DNA of 64,000 bases from an uncultured Anaerolineaceae bacterium (GCA_964385625.1 CAYLPS010000004.1:6407-70406), one strand, 5' to 3'. Shown: positions 49,163-53,216, counted from the stretch's first letter. Translations and numbers: made by a program. The notes: a model not told the origin generated them from the letters alone.

Positions 49163-49600
49163 TCATGCTTCCAGCCAAATGGTCACCGGGCCATCGTTGG
49201 CGATTTCAACCAGCATATGTGCGCCAAACTCACCTGTCTGGGTGGGCACTCCCTGTTCCCGCAACAACTCTGCGAAACGCTCTACCAGCGGACGGGCTAC
49301 ACCTGGTGAGGCTGCGTCAGTAAAAGAGGGTCGCCTGCCCTTTCGGGTATCGGCATACAATGTAAATTGTGAGACGATGATTGCCTCTCCCTGCACATCC
49401 AGTATTGAAAGGTTCATTTTTCCTTGCTGATCTTCGAAGATCCGCAGCTGAGCGATCTTGTCAGCTAAATTTCGCACTTGCTCTTCTCCGTCCTGCGGGC
49501 CTATTCCAAGCAAGATTACCAACCCCTTACCTATCTCAGCAATGGTCTGACCTGCTACCAGCACCCTGCCTGATTTGGCCCTTTGCATTACAAGGCGCAT
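49163..49600 (-). CDS. dtd: D-aminoacyl-tRNA deacylase
   Basis: MRLVMQRA...[17 protein letters not shown]...GEFGAHM is a typical Dtd sequence. Confidence 0.9.
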
Positions 49601-50160: not shown

Positions 50161-51153
50161 TTATGGCAGCCCAACCGCCCCACGAACTTCTGCCATGGTC
50201 TGCTCGGCAATCTTGCGCGCCCGGTTTGCACCATCATCCAGCACACCCATCACGTAATTGGGGTCCTTGGCTAATTCGTTCCGACGTTCTCGGAAAGGTG
50301 CCAGGTGGGTGTTCAGGTTTTTCGCGTACAGCATCTTGCAATCCACACAGCCAATCCCTGCCCGCCGGCACTCCCGATCAACCATGGCTATTTCATCAGG
50401 CGAAGAGAATATCTTGTGCATGGTGAACACATTGCAGATATCAGGATTGCCCGGGTCGCTGCGCAGGATGCGGGCTGGGTCAGTCATCATCATCCTCACT
50501 CGTTGGGTAGTCTCTTCGGGTGTAGCGGCAATTTCGATATGGTTATTGAGGCTCTTGCTCATCTTTTCCACCCCGTCGATGCCCAGCACCTTGGGAATTT
50601 CAGTATTTTTCATCTGTGGCTCGATTAGAACACCCGTGTTGTAGCGGAAATTAAACGAGCGCACGGTCTCACGAGCATATTCGAGGTGGGGTTGCTGGTC
50701 GATACCCACCGGCACAATATTCGCCTTGTACAGCACAATATCGGCGGTCATTAACACCGGGTAGCCCACCAGGCCATAGTTTACATTGTTGGGTTGAAAG
50801 CGCACCTTTTCTTTAAATGTTGGCAGATCAGTTAACTTGCCCAGCGGTGATACCATGGAAAGGATCAGGTGCAGCTCGGTAACTTGCGGGACGTGTGATT
50901 GGATGAACATGATGGTTTCTTCCGGTCGGATGCCCGCCGCCAGGAAGTCCAATGCCATCTCCAGGGTGTTCTGGCGGAGATTGATGGTGTCCTCAACCGT
51001 GGTCAGGGCGTGCAGGTCGACGATGCAGTAAATGCATTCATATTCATCCTGCAAAGCCACATAATTCTTGATCGCTCCCAGGTAATTGCCCAAATGCTGC
51101 CGGCCCGTGGGGCGGGCTCCCGAGAAAACGCGCCCTTTCTTTTGAGAGCTCAT
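50161..51153 (-). CDS. trpS: Tryptophan--tRNA ligase
   Basis: RPTGRQHLGNYLGA (HIGH-type) and KMSKS motifs. ATG at 51153 is preceded by AAGGAG. Confidence 0.9.
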   Translation of the reverse strand: MSSQKKGRVFSGARPTGRQHLGNYLGAIKNYVALQDEYECIYCIVDLHALTTVEDTINLRQNTLEMALDFLAAGIRPEETIMFIQSHVPQVTELHLILSMVSPLGKLTDLPTFKEKVRFQPNNVNYGLVGYPVLMTADIVLYKANIVPVGIDQQPHLEYARETVRSFNFRYNTGVLIEPQMKNTEIPKVLGIDGVEKMSKSLNNHIEIAATPEETTQRVRMMMTDPARILRSDPGNPDICNVFTMHKIFSSPDEIAMVDRECRRAGIGCVDCKMLYAKNLNTHLAPFRERRNELAKDPNYVMGVLDDGANRARKIAEQTMAEVRGAVGLP

Positions 51154-51209
51154 AACTTCTCCTTTCACTCATCGTTTCATTTTTACTGTCAGGGTAAGAA
51201 CCATCGAAA

Positions 51210-51452
51210 TTATTCTTGCCTCAGGTATTTCCTCACCAATCCTGCAATCTCACCCAGTTCTGCGTGCCGATGGGTTTCCAGCTTGGAATACAACAGCTTT
51301 CCATTTATCGAAAACTCGAACCTCCCCCCATCAGAAGGCACCAGGGTGATTGATTCAATATCTGGCTCAAATTCATCAAGTAATTCGGCTGCCAGACCGG
51401 TAGCCCGCTCGGTATAGTGTCAGACCGCACAATAAATCAGCTCAATTTTCAT
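51210..51452 (-). CDS. SelW-like (Rdx family) selenoprotein, 80 aa with Sec at codon 11 (in-frame TGA 51420-51422)
   Basis: MKIELIYCAV-U-HYTERATGLAAELLDEFEPDIESITLVPSDGGRFEFSINGKLLYSKLETHRHAELGEIAGLVRKYLRQE. It has a CxxU redox motif and the Rdx-type GGRFE...NG.L.YSK pattern. A hairpin lies 15 nt after the UGA (51387-51405). Confidence 0.75.
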
Positions 51453-51475
51453 CAACGTTGCAAACCTCTGAAATG

Positions 51476-51513
51476 CTAAGAATAAACACCCCTGCCGGTG
51501 ATGCGACAGGGGT
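51476..51513 (-). terminator. Terminator/attenuator-like hairpin in the leader of the selW-like/trpS operon
   Basis: Minus strand reads ACCCCUGUCG-CAUCA-CCGGCAGGGGU followed by GUUUAUUCUU, and preceded by U8. Confidence 0.4.
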
Positions 51514-52065
51514 AAAAAAAAGCCAGCTTCACTCTTCAAGTACGGTGCAATGCACGATACCTTTTGCCTGGCTAACGGTGGCAGCTCCGGCACGGGATAA
51601 TCCCAGAGAGGTTTCACCCTGCAGCTCTGAAGTCCATTCAACGCAGGCGCACGGGCGGGATTTGCACCAGCTACCGCTCTCTTTTCCGCCGCTTCCGCGC
51701 ATACTCGTCTTCGTCAACGCTATTTTTTATCGAAGGGTAGTATAACATAAATAGGTTTGGAGAAGGAAAATTCTATACCTGTAAGGGTTTTTTTTCATTA
51801 CTATATTTTCTATGCTATGGGGAGGGATGGTTATCAGTTTGTATTTCTAAATTATCCCGGTTTGACCGATATGGCTTTTCCTACACCTTGTGCTTGATGC
51901 TCTCATGAACAGGCTTGTTTGGGCGGGATATGGGATTCCTTAATGTAAAAATAAACTTGCTGGGTAATATGACCTGTTGACGATTAATAATCACCTCATT
52001 ATCGTTTGCTGGGATTTTGAATATTTGCAGCCGGGTCGATCTTATTATTCCTGGTACCCGGGAGG

Positions 52066-52176
52066 GGTAATCGTGCCGCACGATTAATTATTATTTTCAG
52101 GCTGATCCAGGCTATCGGAGGCGCTTTCTTAATTTCCAACTCAGCTGCAATCATAACCGATGCCTTCCCGCCTGAG
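52066..52176 (+). pseudogene. Possible relic of an MFS transporter gene
   Basis: Translates to GNRAARLIIIFRLIQAIGGAFLISNSAAIITDAFPPE, resembling the R.(I/L)QG.G.A...P...A.I...FP TM4-5 signature of drug-efflux MFS proteins. No intact ORF surrounds it. Confidence 0.3.
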
Positions 52177-52355
52177 CCGTATTCGCTTAACCTTGAAAAC
52201 AAGTCGCGCCAACCGTACGGTCGAGGTAGCCCTTCCTGGTGGTTGTGGAATGAGCTGAGCCGGGCAAATAAGAGGATATTTCTGCACCTAATCACTCCAA
52301 ATTCAAGCTGCAGCCTCTCCCAAATATGCTACAATTTATCCGCTATAAGGAGGAT

Positions 52356-53216
52356 ATGATGAGCGCGAATATCGATGTGCGTCCTTCCCCAATTGCCGGG
52401 CAATGGTATCCGGGCAATCCTGAGCAGTTATCCAGGAGTGTGGACCGCTACATCCATGACGCTACTTTGCCAAAGTTGGATGGAGAAGTGATAGCCATCA
52501 TCACCCCGCACGCCGGGCACATGTATTCGGGGCCTGTGGCAGGTTACGCTTTCGCAGCTGTTAAGGACATGAATCCCGAGCTGGTCGCCGTTGTTTCTCC
52601 GATGCACTATCCGTACAATGAGCCGTTGCTCACCACAGCACACCAGGCCTACCAGACGCCTCTCGGGATTATTCCAGTAGATAGCGAAGCGGTTGAAGTG
52701 TTAAACCACCAGCTGGAAGATGAGCTGGGTTACGGTTTATCGTATGTCAGGCGCGACCGTGAACATTCATTGGAAATCGAATTGCCTTTCCTGCAGCGCT
52801 CAATAGCGCCCGGCTTCAAGCTCTTGCCACTCATGGTGCGCGAGCAAAGCCATAAAGTGACCCGCATCCTGGGGCGGTGCCTGGCAATGACCCTGCGTGG
52901 ACGAAATGCGTTGCTAGTTGCCAGCACTGACTTGTCTCATTTCTACCCCCAGGAAATCGCCAACCAGCTAGACGCTGAAATGTTGAAAGCCATCGAATCT
53001 TTTGATCCAGATCTGGTAATCCAAACCGAGGAAGAGGGCAGAGGTTTTGCCTGTGGTAGAGGTGCTCTAGCGGCTGTATTATGGGCAGCCAGGAATCTGG
53101 GGGCAGATCACATCACAATCCTCCATCATGCCACCTCAGGGGATGTCACCGGCGATACCGGGCAGGTAGTGGGATACGGAGCGGCGGTGATCCTGCGCCA
53201 ATCAAAGGCTGCATGA
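52356..53216 (+). CDS. amrB: AmmeMemoRadiSam system protein B (MEMO1 family)
   Basis: RPSPIAGQWYPG...IITPHAGHMYSGPVAGYAF signature. ATG at 52356 follows AAGGAGG. Confidence 0.85.
   Translation: MMSANIDVRPSPIAGQWYPGNPEQLSRSVDRYIHDATLPKLDGEVIAIITPHAGHMYSGPVAGYAFAAVKDMNPELVAVVSPMHYPYNEPLLTTAHQAYQTPLGIIPVDSEAVEVLNHQLEDELGYGLSYVRRDREHSLEIELPFLQRSIAPGFKLLPLMVREQSHKVTRILGRCLAMTLRGRNALLVASTDLSHFYPQEIANQLDAEMLKAIESFDPDLVIQTEEEGRGFACGRGALAAVLWAARNLGADHITILHHATSGDVTGDTGQVVGYGAAVILRQSKAA

What the first reader, a model, noticed from the sequence alone, without database searches (positions are those of the whole stretch)
51210..51452. Hidden selenoprotein gene: SelW-like Rdx protein with in-frame UGA and a SECIS-like hairpin, missed by the ORF track
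The minus strand reads ATG AAA ATT GAG CTG ATT TAT TGT GCG GTC TGA CAC TAT ACC.... Translating the TGA (51420-51422) as Sec gives an 80-aa protein: MKIELIYCAVUHYTERATGLAAELL...GGRFEFSINGKLLYSKLETHRHAELGEI.... That is the CxxU redox motif and fold pattern of bacterial SelW/SelT/SelH (Rdx) proteins. The frame stays open for 69 codons after the TGA and ends 57 nt before the trpS start. Fifteen nt after the UGA lies the hairpin GGCU-A-CCG GUC UGG-C-AGCC (51387-51405). It has a G/U-containing apical loop, as expected for a bacterial SECIS. The ORF track shows only the 10 codons before the TGA as the tail of a spurious 73-aa ORF.
Basis: partly seen in the sequence, partly recalled or inferred. Interest (0 to 1): 0.6.

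Follow-up and report, generated by a model that had tools for sequence, protein, structure and literature searches.

The report
Missed SelW-like selenoprotein gene before trpS
A small redox-protein gene that gene finders miss because it uses the stop codon UGA for selenocysteine is real and conserved in about 90 related Anaerolineae bacteria; the protein family is well known, and the only unusual point is that the gene is the first gene of a tryptophan-tRNA-sensing (T-box) operon with the tryptophanyl-tRNA synthetase gene.

Summary
On the minus strand, 51452 (or TTG 51455) to 51210 encodes an 80/81-aa Rdx (SelW/SelT/SelH) protein with a CxxU motif; the U is TGA 51422-51420. Pfam Rdx matches full length across the TGA (E 1.8e-17). 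Solved bacterial SelW-related proteins place their second Cys on the UGA. A model of an 85%-identical homologue superposes on them (TM 0.92). All 88 clade members examined (Anaerolineales/Chloroflexia MAGs and metagenomes) keep TGA there, with coding conservation on both sides. The hairpin at 51405-51387 is conserved with compensatory changes, and its loop GU is fixed at a synonymous site. TGA is an ordinary stop elsewhere in the window. The window holds no sel genes. In nine relatives, a selD with TGA at its catalytic codon lies 4-5 kb away. This is therefore a new member of a known kind that public annotation truncates or misses. A new detail is that a Trp-specific T-box leader (51726-51516, UGG specifier, terminator 51514-51487) directly precedes the gene and trpS directly follows it. 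trpS follows in 74 of 87 loci, and the T-box was found only where trpS follows. Sec insertion itself and the Sec machinery of this genome remain untested.

The parts
51210..51455 (-). SelW-like (Rdx family) selenoprotein gene. The start is TTG 51455 or ATG 51452 and the stop is TAA 51212-51210, giving 80 or 81 aa with Sec at residue 11 (ATG numbering).
   Evidence: Translation. Pfam PF10262 E 1.8e-17 and TIGR02174 above its cut-off. 88 orthologues have the same frame on both sides of the TGA. The start-codon shift is seen.
51429..51431 (-). Cys8 codon (TGT), the first residue of the CxxU redox motif.
   Evidence: Sequence. T22 and G23 of alignment A2, the first two bases of this codon, are invariant in all 80 sequences. 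The codon aligns with the first Cys of CxxC in 2FA8 and 2P0G.
51420..51422 (-). In-frame TGA read as selenocysteine (U11).
   Evidence: TGA in 88 of 88 clade members. It aligns with the second Cys of Cys-type homologues. TGA ends 26 of 55 long ORFs in the window, so it is not reassigned genome-wide.
51387..51405 (-). SECIS-like hairpin: a 7-bp stem (A.C mismatch at 51401/51391) and loop GGUCU at 51398-51394, with the conserved GU at 51397-51396.
   Evidence: 87.3% of cells are paired, against 18-57% when partners are slid. Four of seven pairs show double-sided changes, and 0 of 500 shuffles reach the covariation score. RNAalifold picks the same core. The loop codon is GGT in 46 of 47 Gly cases, against 81 of 395 T-ending codons at other Gly positions. 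The local MFE is -8.3 kcal/mol.
51465..51469 (-). Shine-Dalgarno-like AGAGG, 9 nt before TTG 51455 and 12 nt before ATG 51452.
   Evidence: Sequence. Relatives have GGAGG at the aligned place, about 7 nt before their ATG.
51487..51514 (-). Intrinsic terminator of the leader: an 11-bp stem CCCCUG...CAGGGG followed by UUUAUUCUU.
   Evidence: Terminator scan. It is conserved in relatives as CCCC(C)G...CGGGG(G) plus a U-run.
51516..51726 (-). T-box leader specific for tRNA-Trp, with specifier UGG at 51636-51634 and T-box bulge UGGC at 51525-51522.
   Evidence: Rfam RF00230 at 58.7 bits, E 3.8e-12, model 1-219 of 219, below the gathering score of 93. The same call is made in 6 of 8 relatives. The specifier is UGG in 37 of 37 and the bulge UGGC in 47 of 47 recognisable cases.
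51770..51798 (-). Promoter-like site (ATGAAA, 17 nt, TAGAAT) about 45 nt upstream of the leader.
   Evidence: Consensus scan only, 9 of 12 matches. This is weak evidence.
50161..51153 (-). trpS (tryptophanyl-tRNA synthetase), the next gene on the same strand, 56 nt after the selenoprotein stop. The scan found no terminator in that 56-nt spacer.
   Evidence: ORF. Pfam tRNA-synt_1b on the identical protein. It lies directly downstream in 74 of 87 loci. The only terminator-like hit near here (51149-51132) is a weak 5-bp stem just inside trpS.

Best explanation
This is a genuine gene for a small thioredoxin-fold oxidoreductase of the Rdx (SelW/SelT/SelH) family. Its active site is Cys8-x-x-Sec11.

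Proposed decoding: the UGA at 51422-51420 is decoded as selenocysteine because the mRNA hairpin that starts 15 nt downstream acts as a bacterial SECIS. Its loop presents a conserved G-U. That element would recruit SelB carrying Sec-tRNA(Sec) to the ribosome in competition with release factor 2.

Proposed regulation: the gene is the first cistron of an operon with trpS. The operon is transcribed from a promoter upstream of a Trp-specific T-box leader. When uncharged tRNA-Trp pairs with the UGG specifier and the UGGC bulge, the terminator at 51514-51487 is bypassed and both genes are expressed.

Shown here:
- family membership and fold;
- conservation of the TGA and of the frame on both sides of it;
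- conservation, covariation and synonymous-site constraint of the hairpin;
- the conserved T-box / selW-like / trpS arrangement;
- a Sec-type selD in relatives.

Inferred:
- actual Sec insertion and SelB binding;
- presence of selA, selB, selC and selD in this genome;
- co-transcription with trpS and antitermination;
- the biochemical substrate of the protein, which is unknown for bacterial Rdx proteins.
For: Family and fold:
- Pfam Rdx matches at E 1.8e-17 over model positions 1-74 of 74. The part after the TGA matches on its own at 1.3e-12.
- TIGR02174 scores 47 bits against a cut-off of 34.2.
- PDB 2FA8, 2P0G, 2OJL, 2OBK, 3DEX and 2OKA match at E 8e-9 to 9e-6, with Cys aligned to the UGA.
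- The AlphaFold model of P0001 (85% identical) has pLDDT 94 and a b1-a1-b2-b3-b4-a2 topology. Its TM-score is 0.92 to 2FA8/2OBK and 0.72 to mouse SelW 2NPB.

The TGA is a sense codon:
- TGA is present in 88 of 88 orthologues and none has Cys.
- The Ala codon two positions before the TGA uses all four third bases (C10, G30, A24, T14) while the amino acid is kept, so the ten codons before the TGA are translated in this frame.
- A GGAGG ribosome-binding site precedes the N-terminal start in relatives.
- TGA is an ordinary stop in 26 of 55 ORFs of the window.

SECIS-like hairpin:
- 87.3% of cells are paired, against 18-57% with slid partners. Four of seven pairs have compensatory changes in 49 cells, and the covariation score is 0.362 against 0.237 for shuffles, reached by 0 of 500.
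- RNAalifold finds the same core as the only consensus structure.
- Two third-codon positions co-vary as U-A 45, C-G 29, U.G 7 and C.A 1.
- The loop codon is GGT in 46 of 47 Gly cases and AGT in 37 of 39 Ser cases.
- The hairpin is the local MFE in 72 of 80 sequences.

Sec trait in the clade:
- selD with an in-frame TGA at the catalytic site (SSCAG*ASK) lies 4-5 kb away in 9 loci.
- Chloroflexi are recorded as Sec users (PMC1794560, PMC5389517).

Operon context.
Against: - No selA, selB, selD or tRNA-Sec is found in the 64-kb window, so the Sec machinery of this particular genome is unverified.
The selD probe worked on relatives, but the selA and selB probes had no positive control.
- Longer MFE folds of the window sequence do not stand out from shuffles (z about 0).
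- The window's hairpin has an A.C mismatch and ranks 50th of 80 in stability.
- The sequences are related, so the shuffle and Fisher statistics overstate independence.
- The loop GU sits 3 nt further from the UGA than in E. coli fdhF, a comparison made from memory.
- The T-box scores below Rfam's gathering cut-off (58.7 against 93 bits).
- There is no experimental evidence of any kind.
Confidence: 0.88

Rival explanations
1. The TGA is a true stop. The real product is a shorter protein starting after it, like the 55-62-aa proteins in public databases, or the locus is a decaying pseudogene of a Cys-type Rdx gene.
For: Most database homologues are annotated as 55-62-aa proteins that begin after the TGA. 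NCBI records call them 'hypothetical protein' (P0039, P0042).
Against: - The ten codons before the TGA, including the invariant Tyr-Cys, are conserved as protein with free synonymous variation.
- The ribosome-binding site sits before the N-terminal start, and the truncated starts are inconsistent (M, L or V at different residues).
- A pseudogene would not keep TGA in 88 of 88 copies with no other disruption.
- A truncated protein would lack strand b1 and the redox motif.
Confidence: 0.03
2. The UGA is read through without selenocysteine. One route is near-cognate tRNA-Trp, which would echo the Trp-sensing operon. Another is genome-wide reassignment of UGA (codes 4 or 25), as the 'W' in the full-length database entries suggests.
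For: - Thirteen full-length homologues retrieved from the database read YCAVW or YCVVW.
- The gene lies in a Trp T-box operon with trpS.
- No Sec machinery was seen in the window.
Against: - For P0001 the 'W' is shown directly to be a TGA in the DNA, on a contig of 1150 bp. It reflects the translation table chosen by the gene caller.
- TGA terminates 26 of 55 long ORFs here, so the codon is not reassigned.
- A Trp in place of the second redox residue would destroy the CxxC/CxxU site that defines the family.
- The conserved, co-varying hairpin with a fixed loop GU has no role in near-cognate read-through.
- Relatives have a Sec-type selD.
Confidence: 0.04
3. The gene is a selenoprotein, but the hairpin is only a by-product of conserved amino acids (A-V-G-L-A-A). 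The true SECIS lies elsewhere, or is not needed.
For: The stem lies in a conserved part of helix a1, so much of its sequence identity is expected from protein constraint. MFE z-scores for the window alone are about 0.
Against: - Four-fold sites inside the hairpin carry 0.4-1.2 bits of entropy, while most four-fold sites elsewhere carry 1.3-2.0 bits. A few CTG-Leu sites outside the hairpin are also low.
- The loop U is a third-codon position fixed in 83 of 86 sequences.
- Amino-acid replacements occur in compensating pairs, for example GLA to SLT with C-G to U-A, and TGLA to TSLV with A.C to A-U.
- The three sequences that lose this stem (L006, L084, L086) form a hairpin shifted 3 nt upstream with a GU-containing loop.
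- RNAalifold finds no other consensus structure within 65 nt of the UGA.
Confidence: 0.05

Closest known systems
Bacterial SelW-like selenoproteins (Pfam Rdx PF10262; NCBIfam TIGR02174 CXXU_selWTH). They were described by Zhang, Gladyshev and co-workers in the Sargasso Sea and in genomes of Geobacter, Desulfotalea, Alkaliphilus and Symbiobacterium (PMC1088965, PMC1794560).
   Same: The size is similar at about 80 aa. The CxxU motif sits between strand b1 and helix a1, and the fold is thioredoxin-like. The Sec-UGA is followed directly by a small hairpin with G in its apical loop. Cys forms are rare among close relatives: PMC1794560 notes that SelW-like proteins have few Cys homologues in Sec-using organisms, and none was found among 88 here. 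The biochemical function is unknown.
   Different: The lineage is different (Anaerolineales/Chloroflexia). The gene is the first cistron of a Trp T-box operon with trpS, which I did not find described. It is only about 28-30% identical to the solved Cys-type structures.
Solved Cys-type bacterial Rdx proteins: 2FA8 (Agrobacterium Atu0228), 2OBK, 2OKA, 2P0G, 2OJL and 3DEX.
   Same: The fold superposes at TM 0.92 and rmsd 1.0-1.6 A over about 80 residues. The CxxC motif aligns with CxxU.
   Different: Those proteins have Cys, not Sec, and a CxQC motif followed by N/R-W. This clade has C-A-V-U-H/N-Y.
E. coli fdhF SECIS, the SelB-binding mRNA hairpin (described here from my own knowledge of the Bock laboratory work).
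   Same: Both are hairpins inside the coding sequence directly after the UGA. Both have a small apical loop reading GGUC(U), with the G-U exposed.
   Different: The loop GU is at nucleotides 26-27 counted from the U of UGA, against 23-24 in fdhF. There is no bulged U in the upper stem. The SelB of this clade is unknown.
T-box leaders (Rfam RF00230), including the Trp-specific ones reported in Chloroflexi upstream of trpE and a trpB-like gene in Dehalococcoides (PMC2494555).
   Same: The match covers the full model length. It has a UGG specifier, a UGGC bulge complementary to the 3' end of tRNA-Trp, a terminator hairpin, and an aminoacyl-tRNA synthetase gene downstream.
   Different: It scores 54-62 bits, below the curated cut-off of 93. 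The first regulated gene is a selenoprotein, whereas described T-box regulons hold aaRS, amino-acid biosynthesis and transporter genes (PMC3766115).

Membership tests
Rdx / SelW-SelT-SelH family (PF10262, TIGR02174) | Profile match above the curated cut-off over the whole domain | tested here: met
   PF10262 scores 63.7 bits against a cut-off of 22.6, over model 1-74 of 74. TIGR02174 scores 47 bits against 34.2.
Rdx / SelW-SelT-SelH family (PF10262, TIGR02174) | CxxC or CxxU redox motif at the end of strand b1, before helix a1 | tested here: met
   Y-C-A-V-U-H-Y lies at residues 7-13. It aligns with YCTQCNW of 2FA8 and YCRQCNW of 2P0G. The motif falls between E3-10 and H16-33 of the model.
Rdx / SelW-SelT-SelH family (PF10262, TIGR02174) | Thioredoxin-like b1-a1-b2-b3-b4-a2 fold | tested here: met
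   The AlphaFold model of homologue P0001 (85% identical to the window protein, W at the Sec site) has pLDDT 94. Foldseek gives TM 0.92 to 2FA8/2OBK and 0.72 to mouse SelW 2NPB.
NF041051 SelTWH_Campy (equivalog) | Score above the equivalog cut-off | tested here: not met
   68.9 bits against a cut-off of 88. The protein is related to this specific equivalog but is not a member of it.
Bacterial selenoprotein gene (Sec-UGA plus SECIS) | In-frame UGA at a position occupied by Cys in homologues | tested here: met
   L007 (Myxococcota) has CRQC and the PDB Rdx proteins have CxQC at that position. Replacing C by X at the site costs 7 bits in the Pfam score.
Bacterial selenoprotein gene (Sec-UGA plus SECIS) | UGA and the reading frame on both sides conserved among orthologues | tested here: met
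   88 of 88 have TGA. The alignment is gap-free, with synonymous variation before and after the TGA.
Bacterial selenoprotein gene (Sec-UGA plus SECIS) | Stem-loop directly downstream of the UGA with a small apical loop containing G (criterion as worded in PMC1088965) | tested here: met
   The hairpin is at 51405-51387 with loop GGUCU. G56 is invariant and U57 is present in at least 90% of 80 sequences. The bSECISearch program itself was not available.
Bacterial selenoprotein gene (Sec-UGA plus SECIS) | selA, selB, selC and selD present in the same genome | not testable with these tools
   Only 64 kb of this genome is available and it holds none of them. As a proxy, a Sec-type selD lies next to the orthologue in 9 relatives. 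No tRNA-Sec was found in the flanks of 42 loci.
Bacterial selenoprotein gene (Sec-UGA plus SECIS) | Selenium actually incorporated at the UGA | not testable with these tools
   This needs 75Se labelling or mass spectrometry.
T-box leader (RF00230) | Covariance-model score at or above Rfam's gathering score | tested here: not met
   58.7 bits against 93, with E 3.8e-12 over the full model. Six relatives score 54-62 bits. It works like a T-box and is very probably one, but it fails the curated threshold.
T-box leader (RF00230) | Specifier codon matching the amino acid of the regulated aaRS | tested here: met
   GAA-UGG-A at 51636-51634, with trpS downstream. The specifier is UGG in 37 of 37 relatives where the motif is recognisable.
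T-box leader (RF00230) | UGGN bulge complementary to the tRNA acceptor end, and alternative terminator and antiterminator structures | tested here: inconclusive
   UGGC is at 51525-51522 and is found in 47 of 47 recognisable cases. That it pairs with G73-C-C-A of bacterial tRNA-Trp rests on my own knowledge. The terminator was found. The antiterminator fold was not modelled.

The most novel reading that the evidence does not exclude
The Rdx selenoprotein may be functionally tied to tryptophanyl-tRNA metabolism and not merely a passenger in the operon. Its expression would be switched on by uncharged tRNA-Trp through the T-box, together with trpS, and in most relatives a D-aminoacyl-tRNA deacylase gene lies close downstream. 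Two possible links are redox control or repair of TrpRS, and an interplay between the Sec-UGA and near-cognate tRNA-Trp, the main natural UGA misreader. If so, this would be the first T-box-controlled selenoprotein and the first functional clue for bacterial SelW-like proteins.
Probability: 0.15. Interest if true: 0.65.

Novelty: new member of a known kind. Interest (0 to 1): 0.35.

Why it matters
- **Annotation.** This gene is left uncalled on all five other contigs of the same organism that were shown. Its orthologues are stored in public databases as 55-62-aa 'hypothetical proteins', or as full-length proteins with a false Trp at the Sec site. The clade is a clean case for correcting selenoprotein annotation in Anaerolineae metagenome-assembled genomes.
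- **SECIS data.** The 80-sequence, gap-free alignment gives a well-supported SECIS for a phylum in which few have been described.
- **Biology.** Bacterial SelW-like proteins still have no known function. A conserved position between a Trp T-box and trpS is a concrete, testable lead.
- **What it does not change.** It does not change what is known about Sec decoding or about the Rdx family.

Tried and rejected
- **MFE folding.** Folds of 61 and 121 nt around the UGA gave z-scores near 0 and different structures. Single-sequence thermodynamics is uninformative here, so I used comparative analysis.
- **Rfam.** At gathering thresholds it found only tRNA-Glu in the window. No curated family matched the SECIS-like hairpin in either the gathering scan or the permissive scan.
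- **tRNA-Sec.** ARAGORN found none in the window or in 42 loci.
- **sel gene probes.** SelA and SelB found nothing anywhere. SelD hit 9 loci.
- **Other selenoprotein genes in the window.** A systematic scan for TGA read-through ORFs in unassigned DNA returned only this gene plus non-coding-looking translations.
- **Identifying the genome.** The exact TrpS is found on at least 22 metagenome contigs (ENA and JGI), but none is a named genome that could be searched for sel genes. The closest genome in the species collection is an Anaerolineales MAG at 85% identity.
- **GlmZ hit.** A weak GlmZ match (E 0.16) is just the terminator hairpin and was dismissed.
- **Genome-wide UGA reassignment.** This was considered because of the 'W' entries and rejected.

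Full report
**1. The observation**

It runs ATG AAA ATT GAG CTG ATT TAT TGT GCG GTC TGA CAC TAT ACC and onward, with the TGA at 51422-51420. Sixty-nine open codons follow, and the stop is TAA at 51212-51210.

The mechanical ORF list contains only two fragments. One is a 73-aa ORF (51420-51641) whose last ten codons are MKIELIYCAV. The other is a 43-aa fragment after the TGA.

The hairpin GGCUACCGGUCUGGCAGCC lies at 51405-51387, and its first base is the 15th nucleotide after the UGA. trpS follows on the same strand (ATG 51153), 56 nt after the stop.

**2. The protein family**

- With Cys in place of the TGA, the 80-aa product matches Pfam Rdx (PF10262) over the whole model, positions 1-74 of 74, at E 1.8e-17.
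- With X at the site the score falls from 63.7 to 56.6 bits, so the profile expects Cys there.
- The 69 residues after the TGA match on their own at E 1.3e-12.
- NCBIfam TIGR02174 (CXXU_selWTH) is passed at 47 bits against a cut-off of 34.2. The Campylobacter-type equivalog NF041051 is not passed, at 68.9 against 88.
- Six solved bacterial Rdx proteins match by sequence (2FA8, 2P0G, 2OJL, 2OBK, 3DEX, 2OKA; E 8e-9 to 9e-6). Their YC-x-Q-C motif places the second Cys on the UGA.
- An AlphaFold model of the 85%-identical homologue P0001 is confident (pLDDT 94). Its topology is b1, CxxU, a1, b2, b3, b4, a2.
- That model superposes on 2FA8 and 2OBK at TM 0.92, and on mouse SelW (2NPB) at TM 0.72.

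**3. The TGA is a conserved sense codon**

A protein search returned 1060 relatives. The close ones fall into two groups:

- truncated entries of 55-62 aa that start after the TGA;
- full-length entries that read YCAVW or YCVVW, mostly on contigs under 1.3 kb.

I checked one full-length entry, P0001, at the DNA level. Its 'W' is a TGA that was translated with a different genetic code.

I then fetched 8 loci from species-representative genomes (Anaerolineales, Chloroflexia and Anaerolinea MAGs, plus two Myxococcota) and 80 metagenome loci. All 88 clade members, the window included, have TGA at the CxxU position. None has Cys.

Outside the clade, the Myxococcota locus L007 has CRQC and L008 has CVR-TGA.

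The DNA alignment of 80 distinct sequences has no gaps. The Ala codon two positions before the TGA uses all four third bases while the amino acid is kept. The ten codons before the TGA are therefore translated in this frame.

Relatives have GGAGG about 7 nt before an ATG that lies two codons upstream of the window's ATG. That codon is ACG in the window, so this copy must start at TTG 51455 or ATG 51452.

TGA ends 26 of the 55 long ORFs in the window, so the codon is not reassigned in this genome.

**4. The hairpin**

In alignment A2 the stem pairs columns 48-54 with 60-66. The loop is columns 55-59, which is 51398-51394 in the window.

| Measure | Result |
|---|---|
| Cells forming standard pairs | 87.3% |
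| Same, with 3' partners slid by 1-3 columns | 18-57% |
| Pairs with changes on both sides | 4 of 7 (49 cells) |
| Covariation score | 0.362 against 0.237 for shuffles; 0 of 500 shuffles reach it |
| Independent RNAalifold prediction | Returns the core of the same hairpin as the only consensus structure in the 96 columns |
| Third-codon positions at columns 51 and 63 | U-A 45, C-G 29, U.G 7, C.A 1 |
| Columns 54 and 60 | C-G 75, U-A 8 |
| Columns 52 and 62 | G-C 66, G.U 8, A-U 7 |

- The window, with L001 and L009, carries A.C at columns 52/62 (51401/51391).
- The loop keeps G (invariant) and U. The Gly codon there is GGT in 46 of 47 cases, while only 81 of 395 other Gly codons in the same genes end in T. 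The Ser alternative is AGT in 37 of 39.
- Four-fold sites inside the stem carry 0.4-1.2 bits. Most four-fold sites elsewhere carry 1.3-2.0 bits, although a few CTG-Leu sites outside the stem are also low.
- Folded locally, the hairpin is the minimum-energy structure in 72 of 80 sequences. The window gives -8.3 kcal/mol and the median of the relatives is -8.8.
- The three sequences that lose this stem (L006, L084, L086) form a hairpin shifted 3 nt upstream.

Caveats:
- The sequences are related, so the shuffle and Fisher numbers are not true probabilities.
- Longer single-sequence folds of the window do not stand out, with z near 0.

The element fits the published description of bacterial SECIS elements: a stem-loop directly after the UGA with a small apical loop containing G (PMC1088965). 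From my own knowledge, the loop GGUC(U) resembles that of E. coli fdhF, but it lies 3 nt further from the UGA.

**5. Sec machinery**

The window has no tRNA-Sec. It holds no other credible TGA-interrupted gene.

In nine related loci the SelD probe found a clear homologue, about 40% identical over about 340 aa, 4-5 kb downstream of the selW-like gene. All nine have an in-frame TGA at the catalytic position: SSCAG*ASK against E. coli GAGCGCK. A Sec-type selD is a second, independent selenoprotein gene and a marker of the Sec-decoding trait in the clade.

Chloroflexi are recorded as Sec users, with their own tRNA-Sec form (PMC1794560, PMC5389517).

The machinery of this particular genome cannot be examined. 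Its exact TrpS occurs on at least 22 metagenome contigs, none of them a searchable genome. On all five shown, gene callers left the 1.2 kb between Memo and trpS empty.

**6. Context: a Trp T-box operon**

A permissive Rfam scan of 51150-51900 matched the T-box leader model over its full length at 51726-51516 on the minus strand. The score is 58.7 bits with E 3.8e-12, below the gathering score of 93.

- The specifier position reads GAA-UGG-A, with UGG at 51636-51634.
- The T-box motif GUGAAGCUGGCU holds UGGC at 51525-51522. This can pair with the G73-C-C-A end of bacterial tRNA-Trp; the discriminator base is from my own knowledge.
- An 11-bp terminator with a U-rich tail lies at 51514-51487.
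- A promoter-like site lies at 51798-51770.
- The scan found no terminator in the 56-nt spacer between the selenoprotein stop and trpS. The only nearby hit is a weak 5-bp stem just inside trpS.

Across the loci:

- trpS lies directly downstream on the same strand in 74 of 87.
- Among loci with enough flank, 40 have both the T-box and trpS, 16 have trpS without a detected T-box, 8 have neither, and none has a T-box without trpS.
- Rfam calls the T-box in 6 of 8 relatives tested, at 54-62 bits.
- Where the motifs are recognisable, the specifier is UGG in 37 of 37 and the bulge is UGGC in 47 of 47.
- Where trpS is missing, the next gene is a Dtd-like deacylase, sometimes preceded by a 284-aa protein of unknown function. 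Dtd also lies two genes after trpS in the window.

**7. Comparison with what is known**

SelW-like CxxU proteins are a long-known bacterial selenoprotein family. It was the most abundant selenoprotein family in the Sargasso Sea data, and it is present in several deltaproteobacteria, clostridia and Symbiobacterium (PMC1088965, PMC1794560). T-boxes, including Trp-specific ones, are known in Chloroflexi (PMC2494555).

T-box regulons are described as aaRS, amino-acid biosynthesis and transporter genes (PMC3766115). I found no paper that joins a T-box, trpS and a selenoprotein. That library is incomplete, so the absence is weak evidence.

**8. Verdict**

I estimate about 0.88 that this is a Sec-encoding SelW-like gene with a functional SECIS. 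The remainder is mostly the untested machinery of this genome.

It is a new member of a known kind, so the interest is modest. It has two useful by-products:

- a documented annotation error that affects the whole clade;
- the conserved placement of the gene as first cistron of a Trp T-box operon with trpS, which is a testable lead to the unknown function of bacterial Rdx proteins.

Noticed in passing
window 51516-51726 (-), with terminator 51487-51514 (-): A full-length T-box leader with a UGG (Trp) specifier and a UGGC bulge lies directly upstream of the selenoprotein gene. It scores 58.7 bits, below Rfam's gathering score of 93, so standard annotation would miss it.
   Followed up: yes
L004 14394-15422; L029 9985-11001; L051, L053, L054, L057, L060, L064, L067: selD (selenophosphate synthetase) lies 4-5 kb downstream of the selW-like gene in nine relatives. 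Each copy has an in-frame TGA at the catalytic Cys/Sec position (LTSLSSCAG*ASKLSA). No selD is present at the equivalent place in the window, where an ABC-transporter operon on the other strand follows Dtd.
   Followed up: partly
Proteins P0001-P0011, P0015, P0017 (locus L009 for P0001): The full-length database homologues carry Trp at the Sec position. For P0001 the DNA is TGA, so the W is an artefact of gene calling with a TGA=Trp code on a very short contig. The other twelve were not checked at the DNA level. Most other homologues are stored as 55-62-aa N-terminally truncated proteins, including NCBI 'hypothetical protein' entries P0039 and P0042.
   Followed up: partly
window 51450-51458 (-): The ATG start used by relatives (M-L-L-K...) is ACG in the window. 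This copy must start two or three codons later, at TTG 51455 or ATG 51452, 9 or 12 nt after the AGAGG.
   Followed up: partly
L006, L084, L086 (alignment A2 columns 46-60): Three divergent orthologues lose the consensus stem (G.G at columns 54/60). They form a different hairpin, CGGGCC-GUG(A)-GCCUG, shifted 3 nt towards the UGA. This suggests the structure is maintained while its sequence is not.
   Followed up: partly
window 49163-49600 (-); L004 11137-11574, L047 2836-3273, L062, L064, L068, L041, L069: A Dtd-like D-aminoacyl-tRNA deacylase gene (145 aa) stays close downstream of the selW-like gene even in loci that lack trpS. In L004, L062, L064 and L069 a conserved 284-285-aa protein with no assigned function sits between the two.
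   Followed up: no
window 51727-52325: About 600 nt with no long ORF lie between the T-box leader and the divergently transcribed Memo-family gene (52326-53216, +). Apart from weak promoter-like sites, nothing was identified there.
   Followed up: no
L056 and L061, upstream of the selW-like gene: These loci keep the 3' part of the leader (GUGAAACUGGCU or similar, plus the CCCCG...CGGGG terminator). Neither nhmmer nor Rfam detects a T-box in them, so their Stem I regions are either very divergent or replaced.
   Followed up: no
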